DNA from: a virus
Taxonomy: Duplodnaviria > Heunggongvirae > Uroviricota > Caudoviricetes
Length of the DNA stretch: 64,000 nucleotides
Virus record (IMG/VR): IMGVR_UViG_3300012016_000001
Coordinates: 1-64,000 of that record
Strand: one strand, 5' to 3'
Every line of letters begins with the position of its first letter. Position 1 is the first letter of the stretch. Of the stretch, positions 1 to 40,504 are shown piece by piece. The notes under the pieces were generated by a model. The model was not told the DNA's origin and did not search any database. It was given only the letters and a program-made list of their open reading frames with translations. The position numbers and the translations under genes were made by a program.

Positions 1-2
1 CA

Positions 3-809
3 GATGTTAAAAGTTTGTATCCAAAAACTTATCAAAGAGAATTGGTTAATAAACAATTTAATCAACTCATTGATGTAGCTAAACAGGATATGAATCGTCA
101 AACTGGCTTTATAGTGGCTCTTGATGTTTCAGGGTCAATGACCTCTAAAGCTCCAGGTACAGGACGTTCTGCTTATTCTGTTGGGCGTGCTATGGCATTG
201 TACTTCTCTGAATTATTAAAAGGTAAGTTTGCACATACATTCTTAGCTTTTAGTAATACAGTTGTGATAGATAGATTTGAAGGTAAAACTCCTTTAGAGA
301 AATATTACAATGGATATAGAAAGTATGATGCTTGTAACACTAACTTCTTCCAGATTGCTCAGTTGTTTGTGCAACTAAAGAATAGAGGATACAAAGAAGA
401 AGATTTTCCAACAGGTATCGTATGTATATCTGATGGAGAATTTGATAGACCTGGAGGAGACTGGAATAGTACTGGTGATTCTGATTGGAGATATAGAGGA
501 AAAGAAACCAGAGAGACAGTCTTTGAATCTTTTAAGAATCATTTAAAGAAAAATGGCTTCTCCGAAGAGTATGTTGATAACTTAAAAATGGTTCTTTGGG
601 ATGTTCCAAGCTATTACTATAGTTCTAGTCCAGATGTAAAGTTTGAAGCTCTTGCAGACACTCCAAACATTTTCCACATGAGTGGATATGACCCTGCAGG
701 TATTGCTTTCTTAACAGGAACATCACAAGTACAAGTAATTCCAAAAACTCCAGAGGAGTTATTTGAGGCTGCTATGCAGCAAGAGTTAATCCAATTGCTA
801 AACATTTGA
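3..809 (+). CDS. von Willebrand factor A (vWA) domain protein, 5' end outside window
   Basis: Frame is open to the window edge. MIDAS-like motif VALDVSGSM and downstream ISDGE motif. Confidence 0.6.
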   Translation, partial: DVKSLYPKTYQRELVNKQFNQLIDVAKQDMNRQTGFIVALDVSGSMTSKAPGTGRSAYSVGRAMALYFSELLKGKFAHTFLAFSNTVVIDRFEGKTPLEKYYNGYRKYDACNTNFFQIAQLFVQLKNRGYKEEDFPTGIVCISDGEFDRPGGDWNSTGDSDWRYRGKETRETVFESFKNHLKKNGFSEEYVDNLKMVLWDVPSYYYSSSPDVKFEALADTPNIFHMSGYDPAGIAFLTGTSQVQVIPKTPEELFEAAMQQELIQLLNI

Positions 810-1567: not shown

Positions 1568-2565
1568 AACCTTCAGAATTAATAAAATCTTTAAGTCCTA
1601 ATGGTTATATAGATACTGGGTTAATGTATTCTAGTGGTGAACCATATGCTGTAGATATATGTAATCTTTATAAAGCTGGTGTTCCTATTGATATTTTAGA
1701 TACTCTTAAAGAATACAAGATGTATGATTTATTCTCCGTAGAAAATAATATGTCCTTACTAAAAAAAATAGAACACCCAAGTCAAATTACTGGAGGATTT
1801 GCAATATCTCCAAAATTGGCTGATACAATAACAAGTTTTTATGGTAGGGATAAATTATTAGAAACAGGAAGAGCAGTAAATCAACATGGGTATTATTCTG
1901 AAGAGGAATTAACAAGTTCAGTATTCTTAAAACATGCTTTAGAAAGGTCTTCAGATTATCTACCTTTTACATTGATTAGTAGTTTAGTTAGAACTAATAA
2001 GAATTGTGAAAGAAGTTTAGAAGCTGCTAAAAAGGCATATACCCTTTATAAAGGGAATGTGGACTTGTCCTATTTAAATAGGGAGCATCCATGTGGTACT
2101 GTATTCTTTATGAGAGATAATCTTATATCTTTAGATGCTTTTAGTATTATTGTTAGTATATATGGAAGAGTTGTTAAAGAGAAAATACAACTAAATATCG
2201 ATACTCTTCCAGATATAAATGATGCTTATAAAAAGTACAGGACAGAAAAAGCACCTATTCCTTCAAACTATATAAAGGAATCAGGTAGAAGTATTAATAG
2301 TTTATTTAATGTCTATTCAGAAAATGACTTAGAACCAACTGACTGGGAAATTGTTGATACTACATCTGGTTATCCAATGTATATAGCAAAGAATGGTGAC
2401 AAAACTGTTGCTACTATTGTAGGCAAGACTAATGAAGAAATATTAGAAGATATAAATAAGAAAATTGAAAGGAATAACGAGTTATATGGTGTTAATTTAA
2501 ATCCTGTGTTACTCTCAACTATAGGAGATTTTTTCTTGCCTACTGTCTTTACAGTTCACTGTTAA
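1564..2565 (+). CDS. hypothetical protein
   Basis: 333-aa ORF with ATGA overlap to the upstream gene. Confidence 0.55.
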   Translation: MKPSELIKSLSPNGYIDTGLMYSSGEPYAVDICNLYKAGVPIDILDTLKEYKMYDLFSVENNMSLLKKIEHPSQITGGFAISPKLADTITSFYGRDKLLETGRAVNQHGYYSEEELTSSVFLKHALERSSDYLPFTLISSLVRTNKNCERSLEAAKKAYTLYKGNVDLSYLNREHPCGTVFFMRDNLISLDAFSIIVSIYGRVVKEKIQLNIDTLPDINDAYKKYRTEKAPIPSNYIKESGRSINSLFNVYSENDLEPTDWEIVDTTSGYPMYIAKNGDKTVATIVGKTNEEILEDINKKIERNNELYGVNLNPVLLSTIGDFFLPTVFTVHC

Positions 2566-2638
2566 AGACTGTTAAAGTATTTGATACCAACACATAGAAA
2601 TTATATATTTACAACACCGACTTGGCAAGGAAAATTAA

Positions 2639-2710
2639 AGAGGTCTTACAGCAACTTGAAATCTAACTTATGCTTAATTTAGGAAGAAAGGAGTAGTTTT
2701 TCAGACCTCT
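2639..2710 (+). ncRNA. CAGCAA-box long-range-helix element, copy E1
   Basis: AGAGGTCT (2639-2646) pairs with AGACCTCT (2703-2710). CAGCAA lies at 2649-2654, 2 nt after the 5' arm. Confidence 0.5.
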
Positions 2711-2738
2711 GCTTAATTGAATCTAGCAATAGGTTCAT

Positions 2739-2813
2739 GGGTGGTTAGCTCAGCTGGCTGGTAGCAAATGACTGTTAATCATTAGGCCGTGGGTTCGAGT
2801 CCCACACCGCCCT
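2739..2813 (+). tRNA. tRNA-Asn(GTT)
   Basis: Hand-folded cloverleaf: acceptor GGGTGGT/ACCGCCC, anticodon loop CTGTTAA, T-arm GTGGG-TTCGAGT-CCCAC. Confidence 0.85.
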
Positions 2814-2818
2814 CTTAA

Positions 2819-2931
2819 AGGTGTGCTGCGTCCTTATGGACTACTCAGCAAATTTATTTCCTACGATCATAAATTTGTAAAATTAACACGAATGAAGGGT
2901 AAATGGATCAATCGAGGCAGGAGGCACACCT
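2819..2931 (+). ncRNA. CAGCAA-box long-range-helix element, copy E11 (variant with an extra inserted hairpin)
   Basis: AGGTGTGC (2819-2826) pairs with GCACACCT (2924-2931). CAGCAA at 2846-2851 follows a GTCC-ttat-GGAC hairpin. A second 10-bp helix, GAAGGGTAAA (2894-2903) with TTTACCCTTC (2963-2972), interleaves with it. Confidence 0.4.
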
Positions 2932-2976
2932 GTTAAATCAAAATCTGTATTAGAAAGTGAAGTTTACCCTTCTAAT

Positions 2977-3050
2977 GCTCCTTTAGCTCAGTTGGATAGA
3001 GCAATAGCCTTCTAAGCTATGGGTCGTTGGTTCGAATCCAACAGGGAGTA
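2977..3050 (+). tRNA. tRNA-Arg(TCT)
   Basis: Acceptor GCTCCTT/AGGGAGT, D-arm GCTC..GAGC, loop CTTCTAA, T-arm GTTGG-TTCGAAT-CCAAC. Confidence 0.85.
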
Positions 3051-3055
3051 CTAGT

Positions 3056-3178
3056 ATGAAAGAAAAATTAAGACAATGGTTCTATTCAATTAATGTCAAT
3101 AAGTATAGACATTATTTTGAGGAATGGTATTCCAATTTAACTCCTCAACAATTAAGATGGTATGAAAAAATATTCTAG
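3056..3178 (+). CDS. small hypothetical protein (40 aa) ending in TAG; would extend to 3208 if TAG is read through
   Basis: ATG at 3056, TAG at 3176-3178, next in-frame stop TGA at 3206-3208. Confidence 0.3.
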   Translation: MKEKLRQWFYSINVNKYRHYFEEWYSNLTPQQLRWYEKIF

Positions 3179-3210: not shown

Positions 3211-3834
3211 ATGAAGAAATTTTTAGTACTCATGTTTGCCTTACTAATGGCTATTAGTTTTTAGAGTTGCACCAACTGTAGTGGTAATCCCAGTCTAAAC
3301 AGTCCTGTTAAAACTGAACTTGTAGTGGATCAAGCTATTAGCTTAGATAACTAGTACATGTTCATGAATTATGGTGAGAACTATCGTTGGTTTGAAACTT
3401 GCGTTCTTATGGACGATTTCCTAGATGAGGAAACTGATGGAAGTGTTAATATGGTTGTTAATATCTATCAGGTTGCAAAAGGTGATGATAAATCTTTCGA
3501 TGTTAAAGTATTCAAGTTTCAACACTTAAAAGATGGAACTGTTTTGAAAGATTCTGTTGCTGGTTTTTGGATAGAAGATAATCCTTTGAATGATTCAACT
3601 ATAAAGATTGATTACAAGGAAGCCTTTAATCTTGTTCAAAAGGTAAATCTACCTAAACCACATACTAGAAATGCTATTCTAAGGAATCCTCTTGGTCCTC
3701 TAGACACTAATCCACAGTGGGTGTTCGGAAATATCCGTGAACAAATATGGGTGGATGCAACCACAGGAGAAATTAGAAAATCAAATCCAGCATTTCCTGA
3801 TGAATTAAAAATGCCTCTTGGTGAATGGCCCTGA
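3211..3834 (+). CDS. putative lipoprotein containing two in-frame TAG codons (3262-3264 and 3352-3354)
   Basis: ATG at 3211 encodes MKKFLVLMFALLMAISF-TAG-SC, a signal peptide plus Cys. It is in frame with track ORF 3358-3834, and the only interruptions are two TAGs. Confidence 0.55.
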
Positions 3835-3997: not shown

Positions 3998-4065
3998 CAG
4001 AAGACACACAGCAAGTGCTTTATAATAAAAAATTTTAGGGAAATTTAATAATTATAAGTCTTCTG
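3998..4065 (+). ncRNA. CAGCAA-box long-range-helix element, copy E2
   Basis: CAGAAGAC (3998-4005) pairs with GTCTTCTG (4058-4065). CAGCAA at 4009-4014. Confidence 0.5.
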
Positions 4066-4203: not shown

Positions 4204-4461
4204 ATGATTAACTCGATTCCTATAATGGACCAGAAGATTATTGATAAGTATTTTCCTGGCCAAGCAGTCAAGTCAATCATGCGTACACCGTTAAAGTCTG
4301 TGAGAGGCTATTCACTTGAAGGAAACAAAGGATTGCTTATAAGCACTCCGAAACTTAAACACCTTCTTGCTCTTTATGCTTCTCAGATAGCGTTACAAAC
4401 AAAATGGAATACTTCCCTTAATAAGGAAGGAGACCATTTGATTTGTCTCTTGTACCCTTAA
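4204..4461 (+). CDS. hypothetical protein (85 aa) between tRNA genes
   Basis: Track ORF. It is preceded by the 15-mer AACAATTAAAGTGTA, which recurs at 8315. Coding status is uncertain. Confidence 0.3.
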   Translation: MINSIPIMDQKIIDKYFPGQAVKSIMRTPLKSVRGYSLEGNKGLLISTPKLKHLLALYASQIALQTKWNTSLNKEGDHLICLLYP

Positions 4462-4959: not shown

Positions 4960-5027
4960 CTATGCATCGGCTTAGGACTGTTGCGTTACGCTTCCTCATG
5001 GTGATACCTTTAAGGTAGAGGAAGAAA

Positions 5028-5086
5028 GGAGTACACACAGCAATGTTTTTATACAGTTATGATATTGCAGAGTTGTTTTGTACTCC
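5028..5086 (+). ncRNA. CAGCAA-box long-range-helix element, copy E3
   Basis: GGAGTACA (5028-5035) pairs with TGTACTCC (5079-5086). CAGCAA at 5038-5043. Confidence 0.5.
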
Positions 5087-5090
5087 GTAT

Positions 5091-5116
5091 GAGGTTGGCT
5101 TTGTCCAACCTCTTTT
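5091..5116 (+). terminator. terminator-like hairpin abutting the next tRNA
   Basis: GAGGTTGG (5091-5098) pairs with CCAACCTC (5105-5112), followed by TTTT. It could instead be a processing hairpin. Confidence 0.4.
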
Positions 5117-5205
5117 GCCCTCATCGTATATCGGTCAGTGCTGGAAACAGACGATTACCCCTGCCTTTTAAGCAGGTAAGCATGGTTCGACTCCATGTGG
5201 GGGCA
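5117..5205 (+). tRNA. tRNA-Lys(TTT) with about 17-nt expansion of the D-arm (89 nt)
   Basis: Acceptor GCCCTCA/TGGGGGC, anticodon arm CCTGC-CTTTTAA-GCAGG, T-arm CATGG-TTCGACT-CCATG. The D region is GTA-T-ATCG...CTG-GAAA-CAG...CGAT-TAC, an extended helix carrying a GAAA-capped hairpin. Confidence 0.6.
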
Positions 5206-5244
5206 CTATAAAAATCAAGACAATAAAAGTAGTTTTTAAGAAAT

Positions 5245-5376
5245 AAAGAAGTCTTACAGCAATAACAATTAATCTAAGTTTACCAAAAAGCGCTGAACTT
5301 GTAGTTCAATGGTAGAATACCTTTTTATTAAAAAGGAGATGACGGTTCGAATCCGTGTGGCAAAAAAGACTTCTTT
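5245..5376 (+). ncRNA. CAGCAA-box element, copy E4, enclosing a tRNA-like core without a conventional acceptor stem
   Basis: AAAGAAGTCTT (5245-5255) pairs with AAGACTTCTTT (5366-5376). CAGCAA at 5257-5262. Inside are a D-arm GTTC-AATGGTA-GAAT, the hairpin CCTTT-TTATTAA-AAAGG, and a T-arm ACGG-TTCGAAT-CCGT. Confidence 0.5.
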
Positions 5377-5379
5377 TAT

Positions 5380-5452
5380 AGAGCTATCCTCTAATAGGTT
5401 AGGAGACGTGACTGATAATCACGCAATCCCAGTTCAAGTCTGGGTAGCTCTA
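5380..5452 (+). tRNA. tRNA-Ile(GAT)
   Basis: Acceptor AGAGCTA/TAGCTCT, anticodon arm CGTGA-CTGATAA-TCACG, T-arm CCCAG-TTCAAGT-CTGGG. Confidence 0.85.
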
Positions 5453-5526
5453 CAATCGTCCAAACAAAAAGTAATACAAACAAACATTTATCAAACTAAA
5501 CATTCAGCAAAACACAATAAGAATAT

Positions 5527-5550
5527 TTCTGCTTAGGCAGAAGTGTTTTT
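5527..5550 (+). terminator. small rho-independent terminator-like hairpin
   Basis: TTCTGC-ttag-GCAGAA followed by GTGTTTTT. Confidence 0.45.
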
Positions 5551-5558
5551 AGTGTAAA

Positions 5559-5595
5559 CTCCTGGAGTACGTGTACTCTGGGAGGGTTTTGTTTT
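5559..5595 (+). terminator. rho-independent terminator
   Basis: 12-bp stem CTCCTGGAGTAC/GTACTCTGGGAG (with G-U pairs) followed by GGTTTTGTTTT. Confidence 0.65.
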
Positions 5596-5601
5596 GGACT
5601 C

Positions 5602-5631
5602 AGCCTCATCTAGTTGCAAATAGGTGAGGCT
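5602..5631 (+). ncRNA. conserved-loop hairpin H4 (loop TCTAGTTGCAAATAGG), 4 nt upstream of a tRNA
   Basis: Stem AGCCTCA/TGAGGCT. The loop is related to those of H1-H3. Confidence 0.4.
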
Positions 5632-5634
5632 TTA

Positions 5635-5709
5635 GGGGCAGTAGCGCAGGTGGTCAGTTCGCGCCAGTCTGAAAAACTGGAGATCGTGGTTCAACTCCAC
5701 GCTGCCCCA
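5635..5709 (+). tRNA. tRNA-Phe(GAA)
   Basis: Acceptor GGGGCAG/CTGCCCC, D-stem GCGC/GCGC, anticodon arm CCAGT-CTGAAAA-ACTGG, T-arm CGTGG-TTCAACT-CCACG. Confidence 0.85.
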
Positions 5710-5729
5710 CAGAATAGTATATTACTATA

Positions 5730-5798
5730 AAGAGGGCTCACAGCAAATTCATTCTAATTTTTTTCGCCATTATAAGTTTGATTAGCTAAAGCCCTCTT
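5730..5798 (+). ncRNA. CAGCAA-box long-range-helix element, copy E5
   Basis: AAGAGGGCT (5730-5738) pairs with AGCCCTCTT (5790-5798). CAGCAA at 5741-5746. Confidence 0.5.
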
Positions 5799-5805
5799 AA
5801 ATATA

Positions 5806-5869
5806 CAGGGTACAGACAGCAAACTTTATTTTAGGTTCGAACTTTTAACTCGATGTGTCTAGTACCCTG
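5806..5869 (+). ncRNA. CAGCAA-box long-range-helix element, copy E6
   Basis: CAGGGTAC (5806-5813) pairs with GTACCCTG (5862-5869), extended by AGAC/GTCT across a 1-nt bulge. CAGCAA at 5817-5822. Confidence 0.5.
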
Positions 5870-5874
5870 CCTAT

Positions 5875-5947
5875 AAAGGAGTCCTACAGCAAATTTGTCT
5901 TACATTCCGAATTGTCATTTCAGAAGAAAAAGAAAATGGACTCCTTT
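5875..5947 (+). ncRNA. CAGCAA-box long-range-helix element, copy E7
   Basis: AAAGGAGTCC (5875-5884) pairs with GGACTCCTTT (5938-5947). CAGCAA at 5887-5892. Confidence 0.55.
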
Positions 5948-5979
5948 TTAAATGAATAACCAATTATAAAATATATTAA

Positions 5980-6043
5980 GGAGGGCATGCAGCAAAAAGT
6001 TTGTAAATAGCGTGTCTGTGTAACATACTTAACAGTGCCCTCC
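5980..6043 (+). ncRNA. CAGCAA-box long-range-helix element, copy E8
   Basis: GGAGGGCA (5980-5987) pairs with TGCCCTCC (6036-6043). CAGCAA at 5990-5995. Confidence 0.5.
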
Positions 6044-6081
6044 GTTTTTATGAAAATGTTTTAACTATTTAAATAGTAACT

Positions 6082-6876
6082 ATGCAAAAATTAAATGTTT
6101 TATTAGCTCTTAGAGAGAAGTTAGCTAATCGTTATGCCCAAATGAACGGTGACTATACTTCATTCTTTAAGAACAAGCAAGGAGCGTTTCAAGGTACGCT
6201 CAAGACACACTCTCCTTTAGATGGGTATGCAGTAGATTCTACTAAAGTAGCTAATGTGAGAGTTATTACCACAGTCAATGAAAAAATGGATTGGTGGTTG
6301 AAAGAAGCTCTAGACTATTTTAACACAGCTTTGGCTATTGAAGCATCTAATGGGCAAGGTGCTCCTACAGTTGAACTAGAATTCGATGGAAGAACTTACG
6401 GTCCTTTCCCAGCTACTGTGTTATTAAGGCTTCGTGGCATTATAGAGAACGATAAGTTCGCTACAATGCTTGGTAATATTCCTGTTAGAGAGGAGACCAA
6501 AGTTTGGTTGCCTATTGATCAGGATGAAGATTACAAGAGAAGAGGTAATATCTTCCAAACAGAAAGACAAGAAGGTGAGACTCGTACTACAGAAACACAT
6601 GATGAAATCTTGAAAGATCCTAACTTAGATCCAGCTCATCTTCCTTCTAATTACCGTGCTCAAGTAACTCAAGTTAAGAGAACAGTTAAGACTGGAGATT
6701 ATACTACTCAGTCATTTACTGGTGAATGGACACATCAGCAACGTGCTAATCTTTTAAAAAGAAGAAGTGCATTGCTCGATGCTATCAATGTTGCCTTACA
6801 AAAAGTCAATGACCGTGAGGCAATTGAGTGTAAAGTAGATGATCTATTCAGACATCTCATTTATGGACAAAATTAA
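6082..6876 (+). CDS. hypothetical protein embedded in the tRNA array
   Basis: 264-aa ORF with no recognised motif. Confidence 0.55.
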   Translation: MQKLNVLLALREKLANRYAQMNGDYTSFFKNKQGAFQGTLKTHSPLDGYAVDSTKVANVRVITTVNEKMDWWLKEALDYFNTALAIEASNGQGAPTVELEFDGRTYGPFPATVLLRLRGIIENDKFATMLGNIPVREETKVWLPIDQDEDYKRRGNIFQTERQEGETRTTETHDEILKDPNLDPAHLPSNYRAQVTQVKRTVKTGDYTTQSFTGEWTHQQRANLLKRRSALLDAINVALQKVNDREAIECKVDDLFRHLIYGQN

Positions 6877-7228: not shown

Positions 7229-7301
7229 GGGAGAGTAGCTCAGTGGTTAAAGCAATAGTCGCTAAAACTATCGATCGAGGGTTCGAATCCCTCCTCTCCT
7301 G
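7229..7301 (+). tRNA. amber-suppressor tRNA, anticodon CTA (reads UAG), with G at position 33
   Basis: A 73-nt canonical cloverleaf: acceptor GGGAGAG/CTCTCCT, anticodon arm ATAGT-CGCTAAA-ACTAT, T-arm GAGGG-TTCGAAT-CCCTC. Confidence 0.75.
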
Positions 7302-7364
7302 CTTATGTTACCATATTATATTATTTTTTCGTTAGTATCTGTCTGTGAAGATCGATACTAAGTC

Positions 7365-7459
7365 AGCGGGTTATGCAAATGGTAAAGCAGTAGTTTATCT
7401 ATGTGAGTACGTATAGTTCTAGGCCAGTACTCTTGGGAGTTCGAGTCTCTCACCCGCTA
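7365..7459 (+). tRNA. 95-nt tRNA-like gene, anticodon undetermined
   Basis: Perfect acceptor AGCGGGT/ACCCGCT, D-arm TGC-AAATGGTAAA-GCA, T-arm GGGAG-TTCGAGT-CTCTC. The 44-nt central region has no canonical 5-7-5 anticodon arm. Its best helices are GAGTAC/GTACTC and CTATG-(8 nt)-TATAG. Confidence 0.4.
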
Positions 7460-7498: not shown

Positions 7499-7646
7499 AA
7501 AGGAGACGAACAGCAATTTCAACGTTTTGCATTTTGGTTGCCGAAGTTAGGGTTCGAATCCCTAGTCCTCCCTAATGGGAGGATTAGTGTAACTGGTAAG
7601 TGTGAAGTTAAGCACACGATAGCACGCGTTTTTGTTGGTCTCCTTT
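7499..7646 (+). ncRNA. CAGCAA-box element, copy E9, enclosing tRNA-Ser-like pieces in permuted order
   Basis: AAAGGAGAC (7499-7507) pairs with GTCTCCTTT (7638-7646). CAGCAA at 7511-7516. Inside, the T-arm TAGGG-TTCGAAT-CCCTA and GTCCTCC are followed after 6 nt by GGAGGAT, the same acceptor as the tRNA-Ser at 7851. Confidence 0.45.
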
Positions 7647-8759: not shown

Positions 8760-9554
8760 ATGAAATTAATAAGTAAAGAACGGACTGGCGGAAATCCAGC
8801 TATTGAAATTGAAATGGACAAGGTGGATAACCTAAGAGTTTTAGATATTATCCATTCTTTGGTTGATGCTCAAGGTAGAATCTATCCAATACCATTCTCC
8901 TTTATAAAGAATGATAATGAGGATACCTTGAACGTGGTAATGCAAGTGTTAGGTTTGTATACCTTTCCAACTCTTGAACTAACTGAATGGTTAGAAGAAC
9001 AAATAGATGAATACACTGAAGGTTACGAGCCTGCTATAGAAATATGTGCAGGAAGTGGATGGATAGGTAGACAACTTCAAATACCTACTACTGATGCCAA
9101 AATCCAAGAAGATCCTAAAGTGCGGAATCTATATTTAATGAGTAGTCAAATTCCTATGATATATCAGGATGATGTTGAAAAGATAGAAGCTCTTGAGGCA
9201 GTTAAAAAGTATAATCCTGAATATGTAATAGGTAGCTACGTTACTTCTACTGAAAGAATTAAGAAAAATAATAAAAGAAAGACTATCTATTTAAATATAC
9301 CTTTACCAAGCGGAGGATTTATAAAACAAAATATGATGGAGCTTGCAGAAAAGGAGATTCCGTTTTTTGGAGTTAATGTTCAAGCTATAATAAGGAGAGT
9401 GCATAAGACTTTCTTAGTTATAAATGAAAGAACCCATTATAACGAATCTTACTTGAGTATGCCACATAAGTCATATAAGTTTCCTTGGCTTGTAACTAGA
9501 GGTGATATTAAAAAAGGTCGTGTTTTAATATATGAGAACAAAGGATGGACTTGA
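8760..9554 (+). CDS. hypothetical protein, possible SAM-dependent methyltransferase fold
   Basis: AIEICAGSGWIG resembles methyltransferase motif I (weak). Confidence 0.45.
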   Translation: MKLISKERTGGNPAIEIEMDKVDNLRVLDIIHSLVDAQGRIYPIPFSFIKNDNEDTLNVVMQVLGLYTFPTLELTEWLEEQIDEYTEGYEPAIEICAGSGWIGRQLQIPTTDAKIQEDPKVRNLYLMSSQIPMIYQDDVEKIEALEAVKKYNPEYVIGSYVTSTERIKKNNKRKTIYLNIPLPSGGFIKQNMMELAEKEIPFFGVNVQAIIRRVHKTFLVINERTHYNESYLSMPHKSYKFPWLVTRGDIKKGRVLIYENKGWT

Positions 9555-9886: not shown

Positions 9887-10696
9887 ATGTTAAATTTTGG
9901 TTTAAAACATTGTCATTCTTCTAATTGGCACAAGAAGTTTCCAAGAAAGAAGATTGAACATGAGGACCCAAAGCATCTAGGGATGCATCAACACCTTAGA
10001 CTACGTAATGAGTGGTTTGAGGGAAGACAAGGTTTTCTTTCCATTAAAGAGATTCGTAAGTTCTTGGAAGCAAATCTTGGTAAGAATGTAGATGAAGTAT
10101 TCTCTGAATTTGTTAAACGTGCTAAAAGATATAAGCATGATGTTAGTCTTAGAGAAAGATTCTTTGCACAGTTAGACCCAGACACTAGGTATGGTTCTGG
10201 TTATACTTTAGATATACAAAACAAAATAGTAAAGGTTAAAGAAATTAAAGTTCACAGGATACGTGACAACGAAGCTCGTGTATTTAATGAAGTAGCTTAT
10301 CCTTATAATATTAATCAGTATTTAAGAGAAACGGAACTTACTTATATAGGAGATTTTTATCTAAGAACTAGACATTGGAATTGGGTAAAAGCACCTGTGT
10401 ATGTATGTAGTAAGGAATGGTATAACTTAGTACTGACATATGGAGTAGGCAAGAAATATACTAAAATGAATGAAATGCAAAGGATACATATATTCTTTAA
10501 TAAGTATATTGCTGTAGGAGTTCCAAAGAAAGGATATGCTACTCGTGCTGAACCTACTGGTAATACTATATGTATCTGTAATCACGAAATGCGAGAGTAT
10601 AAACACGTTAAGTATCCATATACAACAATGGATTGCGAGTCTGATTATATCTTCCTTACTAAGGGAGGAGAAGATACTAATTGGTACGTATATTAA
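9887..10696 (+). CDS. hypothetical protein
   Basis: 269-aa ORF. Confidence 0.55.
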   Translation: MLNFGLKHCHSSNWHKKFPRKKIEHEDPKHLGMHQHLRLRNEWFEGRQGFLSIKEIRKFLEANLGKNVDEVFSEFVKRAKRYKHDVSLRERFFAQLDPDTRYGSGYTLDIQNKIVKVKEIKVHRIRDNEARVFNEVAYPYNINQYLRETELTYIGDFYLRTRHWNWVKAPVYVCSKEWYNLVLTYGVGKKYTKMNEMQRIHIFFNKYIAVGVPKKGYATRAEPTGNTICICNHEMREYKHVKYPYTTMDCESDYIFLTKGGEDTNWYVY

Positions 10697-10704
10697 ATAG
10701 ATTA

Positions 10705-11063
10705 GGGCCTGACCGGATTTGACGGCTTCTGAAGGTAAATCACTCACTCATGACTGATGGAAAGACATCAAAAAAATTAAACGGAGAAAATAACACAACT
10801 CCCCGCGCTAAAGTTGTTAGCATCGTTTATAGAGCTGCAGCTTGATCGACGCCTGGTAAAAGGGTAACCAAGGAACATAATACCCTTAATTTCTTTATTT
10901 TTAGCCAATAATATTCTGCGCCTATCGGAGATATAACTAAATAGGCTGGTGGAAAGTCAGACAACAGTCTGCCCCAGAGAAGGAAACTCTTATAAAACCT
11001 ATGAGTGTAAGAATGTGATGAGAATAGGATTCGCGGACGAGGGTTCGACTCCCTCCAGGTCCA
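10705..11063 (+). ncRNA. ssrA: tmRNA (SsrA), one-piece
   Basis: The 5' end GGGCCTGACCGGATTTGACGG and the 3' end GGACGAGGGTTCGACTCCCTCCAGGTCCA closely resemble bacterial tmRNA termini. Acceptor GGGCCTG/CAGGTCC has a G3:U70 pair. Internal tag ORF at 10783-10845. Confidence 0.88.
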
Positions 11064-11317
11064 CTTGTTAAATAATGTTAAATTTATTGTGGATTTATAT
11101 TGTTATTTATATATTTAATCCTGTAAAAACGTTCATTATAGTAAAGATAAAATGTTCCAGCACTCACGGCTACAAACTGAGTGACTAGTGTTCAACAAGA
11201 GCGCAGTATTACTATCACAGCTGAACTATAGAGGCAGTGAAGACTTTATGGTCGAACTGAGGGCAGTTTAGTCTGGAACAATCTAAGCTGTTCTCTTTAC
11301 TTGTGAAATTCATAAAT

Positions 11318-11979: not shown

Positions 11980-12183
11980 ATGAAAGAAAGAATAAGAAAG
12001 ATTATTGAAAGAATTACTGAACGTAAAATTACAAATGATGATGAGCCTATAGAGATGGATAGTATAGACACTATGGAAGTTATAGTAAGTCTAGAGTATG
12101 AATATGACATCCATATAGATACTATTATAAAGGAGGATTTATCATTAAATGATTACGTTGAGTTAGTTAGGAGCATGGTGTAA
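11980..12183 (+). CDS. acyl carrier protein-like small protein
   Basis: 67 aa with EMDSIDTMEVIVSLEYEY, which matches the ACP DSLD phosphopantetheine-site helix. The track ORF N-terminus overlaps tRNA-His. Confidence 0.55.
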   Translation: MKERIRKIIERITERKITNDDEPIEMDSIDTMEVIVSLEYEYDIHIDTIIKEDLSLNDYVELVRSMV

Positions 12184-12252
12184 TGGTAGCACATCTGACT
12201 TTGACTCAGAAGGGAGCGTGAGCCACTGCAGGTTCGAGTCCTGCTGCTCCTA
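12169..12252 (+). tRNA. tRNA-Gln(TTG) with a 17-nt variable region; overlaps the last 15 nt of the ACP-like CDS
   Basis: Acceptor AGGAGCA/TGCTCCT, anticodon arm TCTGA-CTTTGAC-TCAGA, variable region AGGGAGCGTGAGCCACT (GC-GTGA-GC mini-hairpin), T-arm GCAGG-TTCGAGT-CCTGC. Confidence 0.7.
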
Positions 12253-12290
12253 CTTGTCTCCATTAAGGAGAATTTTAAAGGTGTTTGTTC

Positions 12291-12325: not shown

Positions 12326-12410
12326 GCTGCGTTCGACTAGTGGCTTAGGTCACAAGACTTTCAATCTTGTAGGATGAAAATCCTCAGGGGTTCGAATCCC
12401 CTACGCAGTA
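12326..12410 (+). tRNA. tRNA-Glu(TTC) with a 16-nt variable arm
   Basis: Acceptor GCTGCGT/ACGCAGT, anticodon arm CAAGA-CTTTCAA-TCTTG, variable arm T-AGGAT-GAAA-ATCCT-C, T-arm AGGGG-TTCGAAT-CCCCT. Confidence 0.75.
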
Positions 12411-12414
12411 CTAA

Positions 12415-26298: not shown

Positions 26299-27551
26299 AA
26301 ACGTTAAAATTTCTTAAGGACTGGTTTTGATGATTCATATTTTCTATATTAGTTATAATAAAATTATAACAATATGGAAATTAATGAAAAAATTGAAACT
26401 GGAGTCAAAATGTACCTGAATGGTGATGGCACATTAACACAATTACAGAGTATACTTGGAATTAGTAAAGATTTAATAGTAGCTAGATTAAAGGAATTAG
26501 GATATACAATTAAAAGAGGCTATAAACTATCTACAGTAATAGGGTTAAAGGCTGCTACTGAAGAATATTTAGCTAATTATAATAATAATCCTAGTTTGAC
26601 TCAAATAGCTGCTAAACATGGAATAAAAAGACAAACTCTTTCTTCACACGTTAAAGAATTAGGTTATGAAGTTATTAATCATCAAGATAGATTGAAATTT
26701 GATAACACTATATTTGATAGCATTGATACAGAAGAAAAGGCTTATTGGTTAGGATTTATATTTGCAGATGGATATGTAAGTGATAATAATGATTTTGAAG
26801 TATCTTTAAGTATTAAAGATTTTACTCACTTAAATTTATTGCATTTATTTATGAAGACTGAAAAGCCTGTCGGATTTAATGAGACTAGATGTAGACTATG
26901 TGTGAGAGATACTCACTTAGTAAATACTCTTAAGTCTTATGGTTGTATACCAAGAAAATCCTTAGTCTTAGAATTTCCAGAAGAAAAAATCTTTAAAGAT
27001 ATTAAACTTATAAGACATTTTATAAGAGGATTTGTTGATGGGGATGGATGCATTACTTACATCAATAAGGAACATACAAAGCCTCAACTCTCTATTTTAG
27101 GAACAGAGCAATTTCTAAATAAACTTCAGGAGTATTTACCTATTGATTTTATACATCAATTAGGATATAATAATAAATCTAAGAGTTTAGTAACTAGAGT
27201 TTTATCCTTTAATGGAAGTACTGCTTACAATGTTTGTAAGTTTCTATATCAAAATTCTAAAGTGTACCTAGATAGAAAATATGAGAAATTTTTAGAAATT
27301 TGCCGTTCAGAGGAGGAATCTTCTGAATTATTACTGGGCAAAAACGGTGAAGGCTGTGATGCTCCCGCCGTGGTAAATTCAGAAATTGCGAAAGGTTCTG
27401 AATCACCGTACAGCGTAGAGAGTGAATAAATATAATCTCTCCAAGAGTGCCTGGCACCCCAACTGAAATAAGTGGGTGAAAACGTACGCGGGACTTAAGC
27501 AAATAAGAAGCTTAAGAAACTAAGATAAAAAGCTTAGTGGTAACAAAATCG
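26299..27551 (+). mobile_element. group I intron carrying a LAGLIDADG homing endonuclease gene
   Basis: Splicing GGT|...tcG|AAG ACT ACC restores GGTGSGKTTF. The 5' exon ends in T and the intron ends in G. GC-rich paired segments occur near the ORF 3' end and downstream of it. Confidence 0.6.
26374..27429 (+). CDS. LAGLIDADG homing endonuclease (double motif) with N-terminal HTH-like repeats
   Basis: YWLGFIFADGYV and IRGFVDGDGCI motifs. Confidence 0.8.
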   Translation: MEINEKIETGVKMYLNGDGTLTQLQSILGISKDLIVARLKELGYTIKRGYKLSTVIGLKAATEEYLANYNNNPSLTQIAAKHGIKRQTLSSHVKELGYEVINHQDRLKFDNTIFDSIDTEEKAYWLGFIFADGYVSDNNDFEVSLSIKDFTHLNLLHLFMKTEKPVGFNETRCRLCVRDTHLVNTLKSYGCIPRKSLVLEFPEEKIFKDIKLIRHFIRGFVDGDGCITYINKEHTKPQLSILGTEQFLNKLQEYLPIDFIHQLGYNNKSKSLVTRVLSFNGSTAYNVCKFLYQNSKVYLDRKYEKFLEICRSEEESSELLLGKNGEGCDAPAVVNSEIAKGSESPYSVESE

Positions 27552-39474: not shown

Positions 39475-40504
39475 AGACTCAGTGGGGACGTTAAACCTCT
39501 ATTGATTGACTTGGAAGCCCCTAGAGGGCAACAGGGCGCAAGCAGAAGCGTTTGTAAGTTTCGTGCAGCGTGAACGACTAAGTATAGAGGCTCCTTAAGT
39601 TACTGCAGTGATGCAGTTCTTTTGGGAGATGCGATAGTCTGAACTCTATGGTAACATAGAGAGGAAATTTGAAGAAATTTCCCATCCAAACTTGTTTTCT
39701 CATAAAACACTTATTAAGTTTGTTCTATGTAATAAATGAAAATGTTATTTAAAATTTTTATGAAAATGGAACAAGAAGTACGTAAGTGTTGTATTTGTGG
39801 AGCGTCAGTAGGAAATGGAACTGACAAAGTTTACAAATTTTCAGATGGAAATATGTATTGCAAGAAGCACTATCTTCAGATGTATAGACATGGACATATA
39901 ATAGAAAGAACTATATATGATCCAAATGAATATATAGAATATGAAGATTATGCAGAATGTATATGTTATGATAAATCTGGAAATGAGAAAGGAAGAGTAA
40001 AAATAGATCTAGATAAAGTTTCTTTAATAAAAAAGCATAAAGTGTACATAAGAAAACAAAATGACAAAATTTATGCAGCGATTTCCATTGATAATAAAAA
40101 GGTAATGCTCCATAGATATTTAATGGAAATAATTAATGAAGAATATTCTATTAATAAAGTTGTTGATCATATAAATGGAGATTCTTTAGATAATAGGATT
40201 TCTAATTTAAGAATTTGTACACATAAACAAAATATGCAAAATATAAGAAAGAAAAATAAAATAGTAGGAGTATCTAAAAGTCCTAATAAAAATAATAGAT
40301 GGATTGCAAGAATAATGCATAATTATAAAACTATTAATTTAGGATATTTTGATACTTATGCAGAGGCCACTTTAGCTCGTATACAAAAAGAAAAGGAAAT
40401 CTGTGGAGAGTATGGGCCTAACAAGGATTTATTTTACGTTTTGGATCTCCCTTCTCCATTGGAAGAATTACAAAAATTTGTTCCAGAAGGGGTGTAACAG
40501 AATG
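39475..40504 (+). mobile_element. group I intron carrying an HNH-AP2 homing endonuclease gene
   Basis: Splicing CCT|...aatG|GCT GAA restores the conserved VPAE. The 5' exon ends in T and the intron ends in G. A GC-rich structured 260 nt, including GATAGTCTGAAC (group I core-like), precedes the ORF. Confidence 0.65.
39736..40497 (+). CDS. HNH homing endonuclease with an AP2-like DNA-binding domain
   Basis: VDHINGDSLDNRISNLRICTHKQN (HNH) and NRWIARIMHNYKTINLGYFDTYAEA (AP2-like). Confidence 0.75.
   Translation: MKMLFKIFMKMEQEVRKCCICGASVGNGTDKVYKFSDGNMYCKKHYLQMYRHGHIIERTIYDPNEYIEYEDYAECICYDKSGNEKGRVKIDLDKVSLIKKHKVYIRKQNDKIYAAISIDNKKVMLHRYLMEIINEEYSINKVVDHINGDSLDNRISNLRICTHKQNMQNIRKKNKIVGVSKSPNKNNRWIARIMHNYKTINLGYFDTYAEATLARIQKEKEICGEYGPNKDLFYVLDLPSPLEELQKFVPEGV

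What the first reader, a model, noticed from the sequence alone, without database searches (positions are those of the whole stretch)
5245..5376. tRNA-like core lacking an acceptor stem, enclosed by an 11-bp CAGCAA-box helix
Element E4 encloses good D-arm (GTTC-AATGGTA-GAAT), anticodon-arm-like (CCTTT-TTATTAA-AAAGG) and T-arm (ACGG-TTCGAAT-CCGT) modules in the correct order and spacing. The 7 nt before position 8 (GAACTTG) have no complement after the T-arm. The only closing helices are a distant 6/7 match (TTTACCA with TGGCAAA, with 16 nt inserted) and the outer 11-bp helix AAAGAAGTCTT/AAGACTTCTTT. The central loop would give anticodon AUU, or a 7-bp stem with a triloop. It links the CAGCAA-box family to tRNA-like folds. 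It may be a decayed tRNA, a tRNA mimic, or a precursor needing unusual maturation.
Basis: seen in the sequence. Interest (0 to 1): 0.6.

Follow-up and report, generated by a model that had tools for sequence, protein, structure and literature searches.

The report
Circularly permuted tRNA in phage RNA
The "acceptor-less" tRNA core is really a complete tRNA whose last 12 bases (ending in CCA) are encoded in front of the rest; it sits inside one member of a large, apparently undescribed family of small stem-plus-ACAGCAA RNAs that big crAss-like gut phages encode next to a Ro60-like RNA-binding protein gene.

Summary
The D, anticodon and T arms, the 11-bp outer helix and the ACAGCAA box are all at the stated coordinates. 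The claim that there is no acceptor stem is wrong. The 3' acceptor strand, a discriminator and CCA (C-TAAGTTT-ACCA, 5274-5285) lie 9 nt upstream of the 5' strand GAACTTG. Rejoined in silico, the pieces form a canonical 74-nt tRNA(AUU) that ARAGORN accepts.

Sibling elements give sub-threshold Rfam hits to YrlA (bacterial Y RNA, a tRNA mimic) and to Dictyostelium Class I RNA, which shares the stem, the CCUUACAGCAA motif and the AAG/CUGU ends.

My best reading is a phage Y-RNA-like scaffold presenting a complete, CCA-bearing, permuted tRNA module. The rival reading is a true permuted tRNA gene matured by cutting and ligation. Two relatives carry the amber-suppressor anticodon CUA in phages with in-frame TAG codons.

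Verdict: new variant of a known kind, high interest.

The parts
1..809 (+). C-terminal part (vWA domain) of a Ro60-like RNA-binding protein; the ORF runs off the left edge of the window
5245..5255 (+). 5' arm of the outer helix (AAAGAAGTCTT)
   Evidence: Exact 11-bp complement of 5366-5376. One compensatory pair among the three frame-orthologs.
5256..5262 (+). ACAGCAA box; with the preceding TCTT it reads UCUUACAGCAA
   Evidence: CAGCAA was the search pattern; the first box base is A in 73 of the 101 non-redundant family elements. 10 of 11 identical to the Dictyostelium Class I motif CCUUACAGCAA.
5263..5273 (+). Leader between the box and the tRNA piece (TAACAATTAAT); variable among orthologs
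5274..5285 (+). Upstream tRNA piece: nt 65 (C), 3' acceptor strand TAAGTTT (66-72), discriminator A, CCA
   Evidence: ACCA and the following A run are conserved in L124 and L125.
5286..5294 (+). 9-nt linker (AAAAGCGCT) between CCA and tRNA nt 1; forms the loop of the closed acceptor hairpin
5295..5356 (+). tRNA nt 1-64: 5' acceptor strand GAACTTG, D arm 5304-5318, anticodon arm 5320-5336 (anticodon ATT 5327-5329), variable AGAT, T arm 5341-5356
   Evidence: Rfam tRNA 35.8 bits; ARAGORN on the rejoined sequence; coordinates checked.
5357..5365 (+). Trailer GTGGCAAAA; TGGCA(A/C)AAA is conserved in the three E4-type elements although the tRNA bodies differ
5366..5376 (+). 3' arm of the outer helix (AAGACTTCTTT)
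5380..5453 (+). Canonical tRNA-Ile(gat) starting 3 nt after the element. RNase P cleavage here would define the element's 3' end (inferred)
   Evidence: Same arrangement in L124; in L125 tRNA-Ile follows 34 nt downstream.
2639..2710 (+). Short family member (stem + ACAGCAA, no tRNA module)
   Evidence: model R1 41.8 bits, E 2e-6.
3998..4065 (+). Short family member
   Evidence: R1 36.7 bits.
5028..5086 (+). Short family member
   Evidence: R1 36.4 bits.
5730..5798 (+). Short family member
   Evidence: R1 36.4 bits.
5806..5869 (+). Short family member
   Evidence: R1 30.2 bits.
5875..5947 (+). Short family member
   Evidence: R1 44.1 bits, E 6e-7.
5980..6043 (+). Short family member (GCAGCAA box)
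   Evidence: R1 28.0 bits.
7499..7646 (+). Long family member in the order T arm, closed 8-bp acceptor-like hairpin, D-like region (YrlA-like order)
   Evidence: Fold z-score -4.8; junction-spanning tRNA calls; ortholog at L125 19276-19439.

Best explanation
E4 is one member of a family of small structured RNAs that large crAss-like phages encode on the same strand as, and next to, a Ro60-like (DUF2828 + vWA) RNA-binding protein gene.

Shown:
- Each member has a frame: a covarying 8-11 bp helix joining its two ends, and the single-stranded motif (C)UUACAGCAA just 3' of the 5' arm.
- Between the arms lies a variable cargo.
- In E4 the cargo is a complete tRNA in circularly permuted order. Nt 65-76 (with encoded ACCA) come first, then a 9-nt linker, then nt 1-64. 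The acceptor stem is therefore a closed hairpin, and the RNA's own ends leave the tRNA body at a nick-like point in the T stem (nt 63/64 or 64/65; one base of ambiguity).

Inferred mechanism:
- The element is cut out of the polycistronic tRNA-array transcript. RNase P acting on tRNA-Ile, 3 nt downstream, would make its 3' end.
- The terminal helix plus ACAGCAA motif is the handle bound by the phage Ro60-like protein, as the 5'-strand motif is in Y RNAs.
- The tRNA-shaped module is the effector end. It recruits or decoys tRNA-binding enzymes.
- Because CCA is encoded, RNase P and 3' trimming probably open the acceptor loop, as happens for Mycobacterium smegmatis YrlA. That would leave a two-piece, CCA-ended tRNA mimic held together by the acceptor stem and the outer helix.
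For: Structure:
- The rejoined sequence is called a canonical tRNA. Chance is about 8e-5.
- In the three E4-type elements 94.8% of cells are paired, against 31-53% in the slid controls.

Family:
- Model R1 was built only from other phages' short elements. It finds 7 short members and E4 itself (22.9 bits, E 0.03, full length), all on the + strand at 2.6-9.8 kb.
- 67 of 67 hits at E <= 0.01 in 346 kb of related loci lie on the strand of the Ro-like gene. There are none in loci without that gene.
- In distant relatives the arrays abut the Ro-like gene with no canonical tRNA nearby.

Precedent:
- YrlA RNAs lie next to Ro60 genes, have a terminal stem with a 5'-strand motif and a permuted tRNA-like domain, and M. 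smegmatis YrlA is cut by RNase P and receives CCA (PMC4201824).
- Rfam's YrlA model hits sibling elements (37.9 and 32.5 bits).

Redundancy: permuted copies often duplicate canonical anticodons in the same locus, e.g. Asn GTT in L125 and Thr TGT in L036. This argues for mimicry rather than extra decoding capacity.
Against: - No RNA or binding data exist.
- The Ro-binding motif of known Y RNAs (GNCGAAN0-1G) is absent, and E4 itself gets no YrlA hit.
- E4 lies 4.4 kb from the Ro-like gene, with tRNAs and ORFs between them.
- A complete anticodon loop with U33 and A37, and an encoded CCA, are more than a mimic seems to need.
- Nearest-neighbour energy does not favour the cloverleaf: -16.9 against an MFE of -28.6 kcal/mol.
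- The closest DNA relative, L143, has no E4-type element at this position.
Confidence: 0.55

Rival explanations
1. E4 is a genuine circularly permuted tRNA gene. The leader and trailer (about 10 nt each) are cut away and the ends at nt 64/65 are ligated, by RtcB or an Rnl-type ligase, possibly through a circular intermediate. RNase P and 3' trimming then remove the 9-nt linker. The product is an ordinary tRNA that decodes: AAU in this phage, and the amber codon in relatives.
For: - Full canonical cloverleaf with encoded ACCA.
- The break points give perfect stems in every case, and the leader (9-14 nt) and trailer (7-11 nt) lengths stay similar wherever the tRNA is broken: T stem, D stem or anticodon stem. 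This looks like a measuring device.
- Anticodon loops keep U33 and a purine at 37.
- L124 and L125 carry CUA at the same position. The L124 phage and this phage have in-frame TAG codons in an orthologous lipoprotein gene. No canonical CUA tRNA lies in the 11-21 kb held for those relatives.
- Other members also encode NCCA in the acceptor loop.
Against: - There is no bulge-helix-bulge motif or complementarity between leader and trailer (inspection).
- No self-cleaving ribozyme or other Rfam family matches.
- No RNA ligase or RtcB was found in the 64 kb, only an ATP-dependent DNA ligase.
- The trailer TGGCA(A/C)AAA is conserved, which is unexpected for discarded sequence.
- Some members have the Y-stem in place of the anticodon loop and cannot decode, e.g. 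L133 11111 and L140 10923.
- Anticodons are redundant with canonical genes in the same locus.
- About 73% of family members carry no tRNA at all.
Confidence: 0.2
2. The stem + ACAGCAA frames are only processing or insulating modules of the tRNA-array transcript: spacer hairpins, nuclease entry sites or terminators, with no protein partner of their own. The tRNA pieces inside some of them are rearrangement debris.
For: In the window's lineage many elements end 3-8 nt before a canonical tRNA. The 3' arms are often followed by U-rich sequence.
Against: - In eight more distant phages the arrays have no canonical tRNA nearby and instead abut the Ro-like gene.
- The enclosed tRNAs are complete rather than debris.
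- The same motif, stem and end sequences define independently transcribed Class I RNAs in Dictyostelium.
Confidence: 0.12
3. E4 is a decaying tRNA pseudogene that lies inside a chance inverted repeat.
For: - The AU-only anticodon arm and the odd anticodon AUU.
- ARAGORN does not call it in native order.
- L143 lacks it.
Against: - Every helix and every tertiary-interaction base is intact.
- The upstream acceptor strand + ACCA has p of about 8e-5.
- The frame is detected by a model built from other phages.
- Two relatives have the same architecture.
Confidence: 0.03
4. The elements act at the DNA level, as MITE-like repeats, attC-like recombination sites or hairpin promoters.
For: They are inverted repeats of variable sequence with a conserved adjacent motif, which superficially resembles integron attC sites.
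Against: - Strict single-strand orientation, 67 of 67.
- G.U pairs are tolerated in the arms.
- The arms differ between copies, so they are not transposon ends.
- The contents are RNA-type structures (tRNA, YrlA-like).
- No integrase or transposase is nearby.
Confidence: 0.02

Closest known systems
YrlA (bacterial and mycobacteriophage Y RNA-like RNA; Rfam RF02553; Chen et al. 2014, PMC4201824)
   Same: - Encoded beside a Ro60-type gene.
- The two ends form a stem, with a conserved single-stranded motif on the 5' strand.
- The internal module is a circularly permuted tRNA mimic with T and D arms and a closed acceptor-like hairpin.
- In one species the acceptor loop is opened by RNase P and receives CCA.
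- Sibling elements of E4 get significant sub-threshold YrlA hits.
   Different: - The motif is (C)UUACAGCAA, not GNCGAAN0-1G.
- The partner protein is DUF2828-type, not a TROVE-family Pfam match.
- E4's order is acceptor hairpin, D, anticodon arm, T (break in the T stem), not T, acceptor hairpin, D.
- E4 keeps a full anticodon arm and encodes CCA.
- Up to about 10 copies per genome, many in tandem.
- E4 itself is not hit by the YrlA model.
Dictyostelium Class I RNAs (Rfam RF01414; Kjellin et al. 2021, PMC7919456)
   Same: - Short terminal stem whose sequence covaries.
- An 11-nt motif CCUUACAGCAA directly 3' of the 5' arm; E4 has UCUUACAGCAA.
- AAG at the start and CUGU at the end: the family logo is AAG ... 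CU|GUU.
- Variable interior, about 60 nt; the short phage members have a median of about 63 nt.
- Five tandem phage units match the Rfam model over its full length (34.1-16.5 bits).
   Different: - A eukaryotic family reported as unique to dictyostelids, with its own DUSE promoter and an RRM-protein partner (Rnp1A).
- The phage hits are below the gathering score (41.5). The window's own short elements do not hit at all.
- No Class I RNA is known to carry a tRNA module.
- Homology versus convergence is open.
Circularly permuted tRNA genes of Cyanidioschyzon merolae, some green algae and Thermofilum (from my own knowledge; reviewed in PMC3400036 and PMC4238349, found but not read)
   Same: The 3' part of the tRNA is encoded upstream of the 5' part, with a short linker after the acceptor 3' end. 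Leader and trailer are brought together by a helix. The cloverleaf is complete after permutation.
   Different: Those genes use a bulge-helix-bulge motif, the archaeal/eukaryal splicing endonuclease and a circular intermediate. E4 has no BHB motif and sits in a bacteriophage. I found no report of permuted tRNA genes in bacteriophages.
Two-piece tmRNA from permuted ssrA genes (alpha-proteobacteria, cyanobacteria; from my own knowledge)
   Same: The gene order is CCA-bearing acceptor piece, linker, then 5' piece. Excision of the linker gives two RNAs held together by base pairing. This is the model for how E4 could work without a ligase.
   Different: E4 has no mRNA-like tag region, and Rfam's tmRNA_permuted model does not match it. 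The window has a separate, standard one-piece tmRNA at 10705-11064.

Membership tests
Canonical tRNA gene (RF00005 / ARAGORN) | Contiguous cloverleaf whose acceptor stem is formed by the 5' and 3' ends of one uninterrupted segment | tested here: not met
   ARAGORN makes no call in native order. The Rfam match covers model positions 8-63 only.
Canonical tRNA gene (RF00005 / ARAGORN) | D, anticodon and T arms with the conserved tertiary-interaction nucleotides | tested here: met
   35.8 bits, above the gathering score of 29. U8, A14, G18G19, A15:U48 and TTCGAAT are read from the sequence.
Circularly permuted tRNA gene (Cyanidioschyzon type) | 3' segment upstream of the 5' segment; full cloverleaf after circular permutation | tested here: met
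   5295-5356 + 5274-5285 is called tRNA-Asn(att), 74 nt. It is robust at 115% of the thresholds.
Circularly permuted tRNA gene (Cyanidioschyzon type) | Bulge-helix-bulge motif at the leader/trailer junction | tested here: not met
   Leader TAACAATTAAT and trailer GTGGCAAAA share no 4-bp helix (inspection).
Circularly permuted tRNA gene (Cyanidioschyzon type) | Ligated mature tRNA, or a circular intermediate | not testable with these tools
   Needs RNA sequencing across the 5356|5274 junction.
YrlA / bacterial Y RNA (RF02553) | Encoded adjacent to a Ro60 ortholog | tested here: met
   Same strand, 4.4 kb downstream in the window. Arrays abut the gene in relatives. Ro60-likeness of the protein.
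YrlA / bacterial Y RNA (RF02553) | Stem formed by the 5' and 3' ends | tested here: met
   11-bp helix in E4. The family helix is 87% paired with many double changes, but members were selected for pairing.
YrlA / bacterial Y RNA (RF02553) | 5'-strand motif GNCGAAN0-1G | tested here: not met
   ACAGCAA occupies that place.
YrlA / bacterial Y RNA (RF02553) | tRNA-like domain in the order T, acceptor-like stem-loop, D | tested here: not met
   E4's order is acceptor hairpin, D, anticodon arm, T. Sibling elements such as L142 713-836 and window 7499-7646 do have the YrlA order.
YrlA / bacterial Y RNA (RF02553) | Covariance-model score at or above the gathering score (69 bits) | tested here: not met
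   No hit for E4 at E <= 1. Siblings reach 37.9 and 32.5 bits.
YrlA / bacterial Y RNA (RF02553) | Bound by the Ro60 protein | not testable with these tools
   Needs immunoprecipitation or in-vitro binding.
Dictyostelium Class I RNA (RF01414) | Short stem joining the 5' and 3' ends, with the 11-nt motif CCUUACAGCAA adjacent to the 5' arm | tested here: met
   E4 reads ...GUCUUACAGCAA (10 of 11). Family logo nCUU-ACAGCAA. Motif definition from PMC7919456 and the Rfam consensus.
Dictyostelium Class I RNA (RF01414) | Length 42-65 nt; AAG start and CUGU end | tested here: not met
   E4 is 132 nt and ends CUUUUAU. Short siblings are 50-74 nt, with an AAG start and a CU|GUU end in the logo.
Dictyostelium Class I RNA (RF01414) | Covariance-model score at or above the gathering score (41.5 bits) | tested here: not met
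   The best sibling reaches 34.1 bits. There are no hits in window 5700-6060 at E <= 10.

The most novel reading that the evidence does not exclude
E4-type elements are working tRNA genes in an inside-out form. After RNase P opens the acceptor loop, the RNA is aminoacylated and decodes, either as a two-piece tRNA clamped by the outer helix or after cutting and ligation. In relatives whose copy carries anticodon CUA it would be the amber suppressor. The Ro60-like protein and the ACAGCAA frame would then gate when the phage switches TAG from stop to sense.

A second, independent novel reading: the phage family and Dictyostelium Class I RNAs are homologous ligands of DUF2828-type Ro60 relatives.
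Probability: 0.18. Interest if true: 0.95.

Novelty: new variant of a known kind. Interest (0 to 1): 0.8.

Why it matters
- I found no report of circularly permuted, complete, CCA-encoding tRNAs in bacteriophages.
- The finding ties three separate things together: Y RNAs that mimic tRNA, permuted tRNA genes, and the orphan Class I RNAs of social amoebae.
- It assigns a candidate RNA partner to an uncharacterised Ro60-like protein family (DUF2828/DUF7788). That family is also annotated in plants.
- It gives an abundant group of human-gut phages a testable RNA-protein system.
- If the CUA-bearing relatives turn out to be functional suppressors, it would add a new layer to how these phages reassign the TAG stop codon.
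- Standard tRNA finders miss all of these genes, so phage tRNA inventories and genetic-code predictions may be incomplete.

Tried and rejected
- **Near-identical DNA in GenBank phages:** none.
- **blastn of 4961-6080 against three relatives found through DUF7873:** no hits, and no CAGCAA elements there.
- **Exact pattern for the E4 core in IMG/VR:** nothing.
- **Loose patterns in IMG/VR and metagenomes:** The single metagenome scan gave 0 true E4-type elements out of 120 loci. L123 was a coding-region accident.
- **Purine-rich 5' arm (AAAGGAG) as a Shine-Dalgarno site or the 3' arm as an anti-SD mimic:** dropped. The arms covary freely and no conserved ORF follows.
- **Bacteroidetes-type or sigma-70 promoter, or intrinsic terminator:** the distance from the box to the downstream tRNA varies from 59 to 150 nt and the loops are 40-130 nt, so this was rejected.
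- **Self-cleaving ribozyme at the junctions:** no Rfam ribozyme family matches.
- **Pairing of the box with the trailer:** seen only in 7499-7646, so not general.
- **CCA:UGG pairing with the conserved trailer:** geometrically incompatible with the folded tRNA. Left unexplained.
- **Unannotated neighbour ORFs (1564-2565, 3358-3834, 4204-4461, 6082-6876, 8760-9554, 9887-10696):** no informative Pfam, PHROG, NCBIfam or PDB hit.
- **RNA ligase or RtcB in the window:** not found.
- **Common origin of E4's body with any canonical tRNA of the window, or with the L124/L125 bodies:** identities of 55-69% are background level.

Full report
**Setting.** The window is from a large crAss-like phage. Its DNA polymerase A is 51% identical to that of Kolpuevirus 'frurule'. 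There is no near-identical DNA in GenBank phages. From 2.7 to 12.5 kb the + strand carries 22 ARAGORN tRNAs and a tmRNA. The ORF that runs off the left edge (1-809) is the vWA end of a Ro60-like protein.

**Check of the observation.**
- The sequence at 5245-5376 is as described.
- Rfam's tRNA model matches 5302-5357 at 35.8 bits, above its gathering score of 29, but only over model positions 8-63. ARAGORN calls nothing there.
- The 11-bp helix and the ACAGCAA box are exact.
- The missing acceptor strand is not missing. TAAGTTT (5275-5281) pairs with GAACTTG (5295-5301) at all seven positions, two of them G.U. It is followed by ACCA. It is preceded by C5274, which supplies the fifth T-stem pair with G5341.
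- Joining 5295-5356 to 5274-5285 gives a 74-nt sequence that ARAGORN calls tRNA-Asn(att) with a textbook cloverleaf. This junction is among the only three that survive at 115% of the default thresholds, out of about 1,300 tried. A single shared T leaves the junction ambiguous by one base.
- The full motif arises in 16 of 200,000 shuffles of the upstream 32 nt. It occurs once in 128 kb of window sequence, at E4.
The element is a circularly permuted, complete tRNA, not an acceptor-less core.

**The frame is a family.**
- A stem-plus-box scan found about 10 elements between 2.6 and 9.8 kb, all on the + strand.
- Related IMG/VR and ENA contigs contain many more.
- From 101 non-redundant elements the logo is AAG - stem (8-11 bp, sequence free) - nCUU-ACAGCAA-AU - variable interior - stem - CU|GUU.
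- Lengths are bimodal: 50-74 nt (n=73) and 86-164 nt (n=28).
- I built covariance model R1 from 53 short elements, none from this window. In the window it finds seven short members at E <= 0.002, and then E4 itself over its full length (22.9 bits, E 0.03), despite the roughly 70-nt extra insert.
- In 346 kb of related loci all 67 hits at E <= 0.01 lie on one strand. There are none in three loci that lack the Ro-like gene.
- Caveat: the helix covariation is partly circular, because members were chosen for having a stem. The strand bias and the R1 cross-detection are the independent evidence.

**Permuted tRNAs are a recurrent cargo.**
- I circularised the interior of every long element at all leader/trailer trims and asked ARAGORN for tRNAs spanning the junction.
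- Most genuine long elements scored (10 of 12); some, such as L101/L124 2592-2742 and L131 8794-8902, did not. About 20 chance stem+CAGCAA candidates in coding regions gave none.
- Break points differ between elements:
  - T stem 63/64-64/65: E4, L124 9490-9623, L125 16403-16535.
  - D stem 24/25: L125 15008-15144, Asn GTT.
  - Anticodon stem 29/30: Thr TGT in L036 and L112, Thr CGT in L142.
  - In L133 11111 and L140 10923 the Y-stem replaces the anticodon loop.
- The leader is always 9-14 nt and the trailer 7-11 nt.
- Several members encode NCCA in the acceptor loop.

**E4-type relatives.**
- L124 and L125 hold elements with the same frame (arms AAGAAGTC.., ACCA + A run, trailer TGGCA(A/C)AAA). 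Both lie upstream of tRNA-Ile: directly before it in L124, 34 nt before it in L125.
- On the three-way alignment 94.8% of cells pair, against 31-53% when partners are slid. Eleven pairs change on both sides, including three in the permuted acceptor helix and the 65:49 pair.
- Caveat: E4's tRNA body is only 64-66% identical to theirs, which is the background among unrelated tRNAs. This shows three independent complete tRNAs in one conserved frame rather than classical covariation.
- Their anticodon is CUA.
- Both this phage and the L124 phage have two in-frame TAG codons in an orthologous lipoprotein gene. The window has a canonical tRNA(CUA) at 7229.
- The closest DNA relative, L143, has a different 93-nt element at this position.

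**The neighbouring protein.**
- The full-length relative (599 aa) is DUF2828 + DUF7788 with a weak vWA_Ro60 match.
- tblastn links the window fragment to mycobacteriophage 'Ro-like RNA binding protein'.
- Using this protein as bait recovered 19 loci.
- In eight of the more distant loci the CAGCAA arrays start right at the gene. Units are separated by about 4 nt (GATA), and there is no canonical tRNA nearby.
- The family therefore goes with the Ro-like gene, not with tRNA arrays as such.

**Comparison with known RNAs.**
- *YrlA.* YrlA RNAs are Y RNAs encoded next to Ro60 genes in more than 250 bacteria and phages. They have a terminal stem, a 5'-strand motif and a T / acceptor-like / D tRNA mimic. 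M. smegmatis YrlA is cut by RNase P and receives CCA (PMC4201824). Rfam's YrlA model hits L142 728-848 (37.9 bits, full length) and L133 11144-11214 (32.5 bits), both CAGCAA elements, below its gathering score of 69.
- *Class I RNA.* Unexpectedly, Rfam's Dictyostelium Class I RNA model matches five consecutive units in L139 over its full length (34.1 to 16.5 bits; gathering score 41.5) and one unit in L142. Class I RNAs are defined by a short covarying terminal stem, the motif CCUUACAGCAA beside the 5' arm, an AAG start, a CUGU end and a length of about 60 nt. They were reported as unique to dictyostelids (PMC7919456). The phage logo reproduces each of these features. The window's own short elements do not reach that model.
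- *Literature.* I found nothing on permuted tRNAs in bacteriophages, or on Ro60 or Y RNAs in crAss-like phages.

**Mechanism.**
- *Shown:* the anatomy, the family, its orientation, and its linkage to the Ro-like gene.
- *Inferred:* the element is released from the array transcript, with RNase P at tRNA-Ile (3 nt downstream) making its 3' end. The helix plus ACAGCAA is the protein handle. The tRNA module is the business end. The encoded CCA becomes a free 3' end after RNase P and trimming. This gives a two-piece tRNA mimic, by analogy with M. smegmatis YrlA and with two-piece tmRNA.
- The main rival is true maturation to an ordinary tRNA by cutting and ligation. The constant leader and trailer lengths, the intact anticodon loops and the CUA copies favour it. 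Against it are the lack of any BHB motif, ribozyme or ligase, the conserved trailer, the anticodon-less members and the redundancy with canonical genes.
- A break at 64/65 lies on the T-stem face that EF-Tu contacts (textbook knowledge). An unligated form is therefore unlikely to be a good elongator tRNA.
- Nearest-neighbour folding prefers a non-cloverleaf fold (-28.6 against -16.9 kcal/mol). This is common for AU-rich tRNAs, but it counts as a caution.

**Verdict.** E4 is real, non-random, and more interesting than first described. It is a complete circularly permuted tRNA carried in a Class-I-like / Y-RNA-like frame of a Ro60-associated phage RNA family. It is not a member of any curated family by score. 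It is best filed as a new variant of the YrlA kind of tRNA-mimicking Y RNA, with an open possibility that it is a working permuted tRNA.

Noticed in passing
window 7499-7646; ortholog L125 19276-19439: 148-nt CAGCAA-box element in the order T arm (TAGGG-TTCGAAT-CCCTA), closed 8-bp hairpin (GTCCTCCC-TAAT-GGGAGGAT), then a D-like region. This is the YrlA-like order. The fold is very stable (z-score -4.8). It gets no YrlA hit from Rfam.
   Followed up: partly
window 3211-3834; ortholog L124 about 2483-3112: A lipoprotein-like ORF (MKKFLVLMFALLMAISF*SC...) has two in-frame TAG codons. The first sits just before the lipobox Ser-Cys in both phages. Together with tRNA(CUA) at 7229-7302, this suggests that TAG is read as sense.
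   Followed up: partly
window 5117-5206: ARAGORN calls a 90-nt tRNA-Val(gac). The sequence has a normal CCTGC-CTTTTAA-GCAGG anticodon arm (Lys UUU), and the positional orthologs in L124, L125 and L143 are tRNA-Lys(ttt). It seems to be tRNA-Lys with an extra hairpin of about 15 nt in the D loop.
   Followed up: partly
window 7365-7459: A 95-nt tRNA-like sequence (Rfam tRNA 33 bits, full model) with a 27-nt insert in the anticodon region and a 12-nt insert before the T arm. ARAGORN does not call it. It could be an intron-containing or aberrant tRNA.
   Followed up: no
window 10705-11064; also L140 11875-12215: A phage-encoded one-piece tmRNA (tag GENNTTPRAKVVSIVYRAAA) lies within the tRNA array. 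A relative also carries a tmRNA close to its CAGCAA array.
   Followed up: no
L143 10001-12600: In the ENA relative, the Ro60-like gene is interrupted after 468 codons by a LAGLIDADG-type ORF (an intein or intron). Many database homologues of this protein are fragments.
   Followed up: no
window 26374-27429 and 39736-40497: LAGLIDADG and HNH homing-endonuclease ORFs sit among the replication and nucleotide-metabolism genes (DnaB-like helicase, NrdD).
   Followed up: no
window 5357-5365; L124 and L125 equivalents: The trailer TGGCA(A/C)AAA after the T arm is conserved in all three E4-type elements although the tRNA bodies differ. Its UGG can pair with the encoded CCA, but that pairing is incompatible with the folded tRNA. 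This is unexplained.
   Followed up: partly
L036 3997-3878 versus L105 8787-8667: Two nearly identical E4-like elements (imperfect acceptor) differ in the middle anticodon base, TAG against TTG. This is an anticodon switch between close relatives.
   Followed up: no
window 12169-12253 and 12326-12411: tRNA-Gln and tRNA-Glu are 85-86 nt long, unusually long for these isoacceptors. They may carry insertions like the tRNA at 5117-5206.
   Followed up: no
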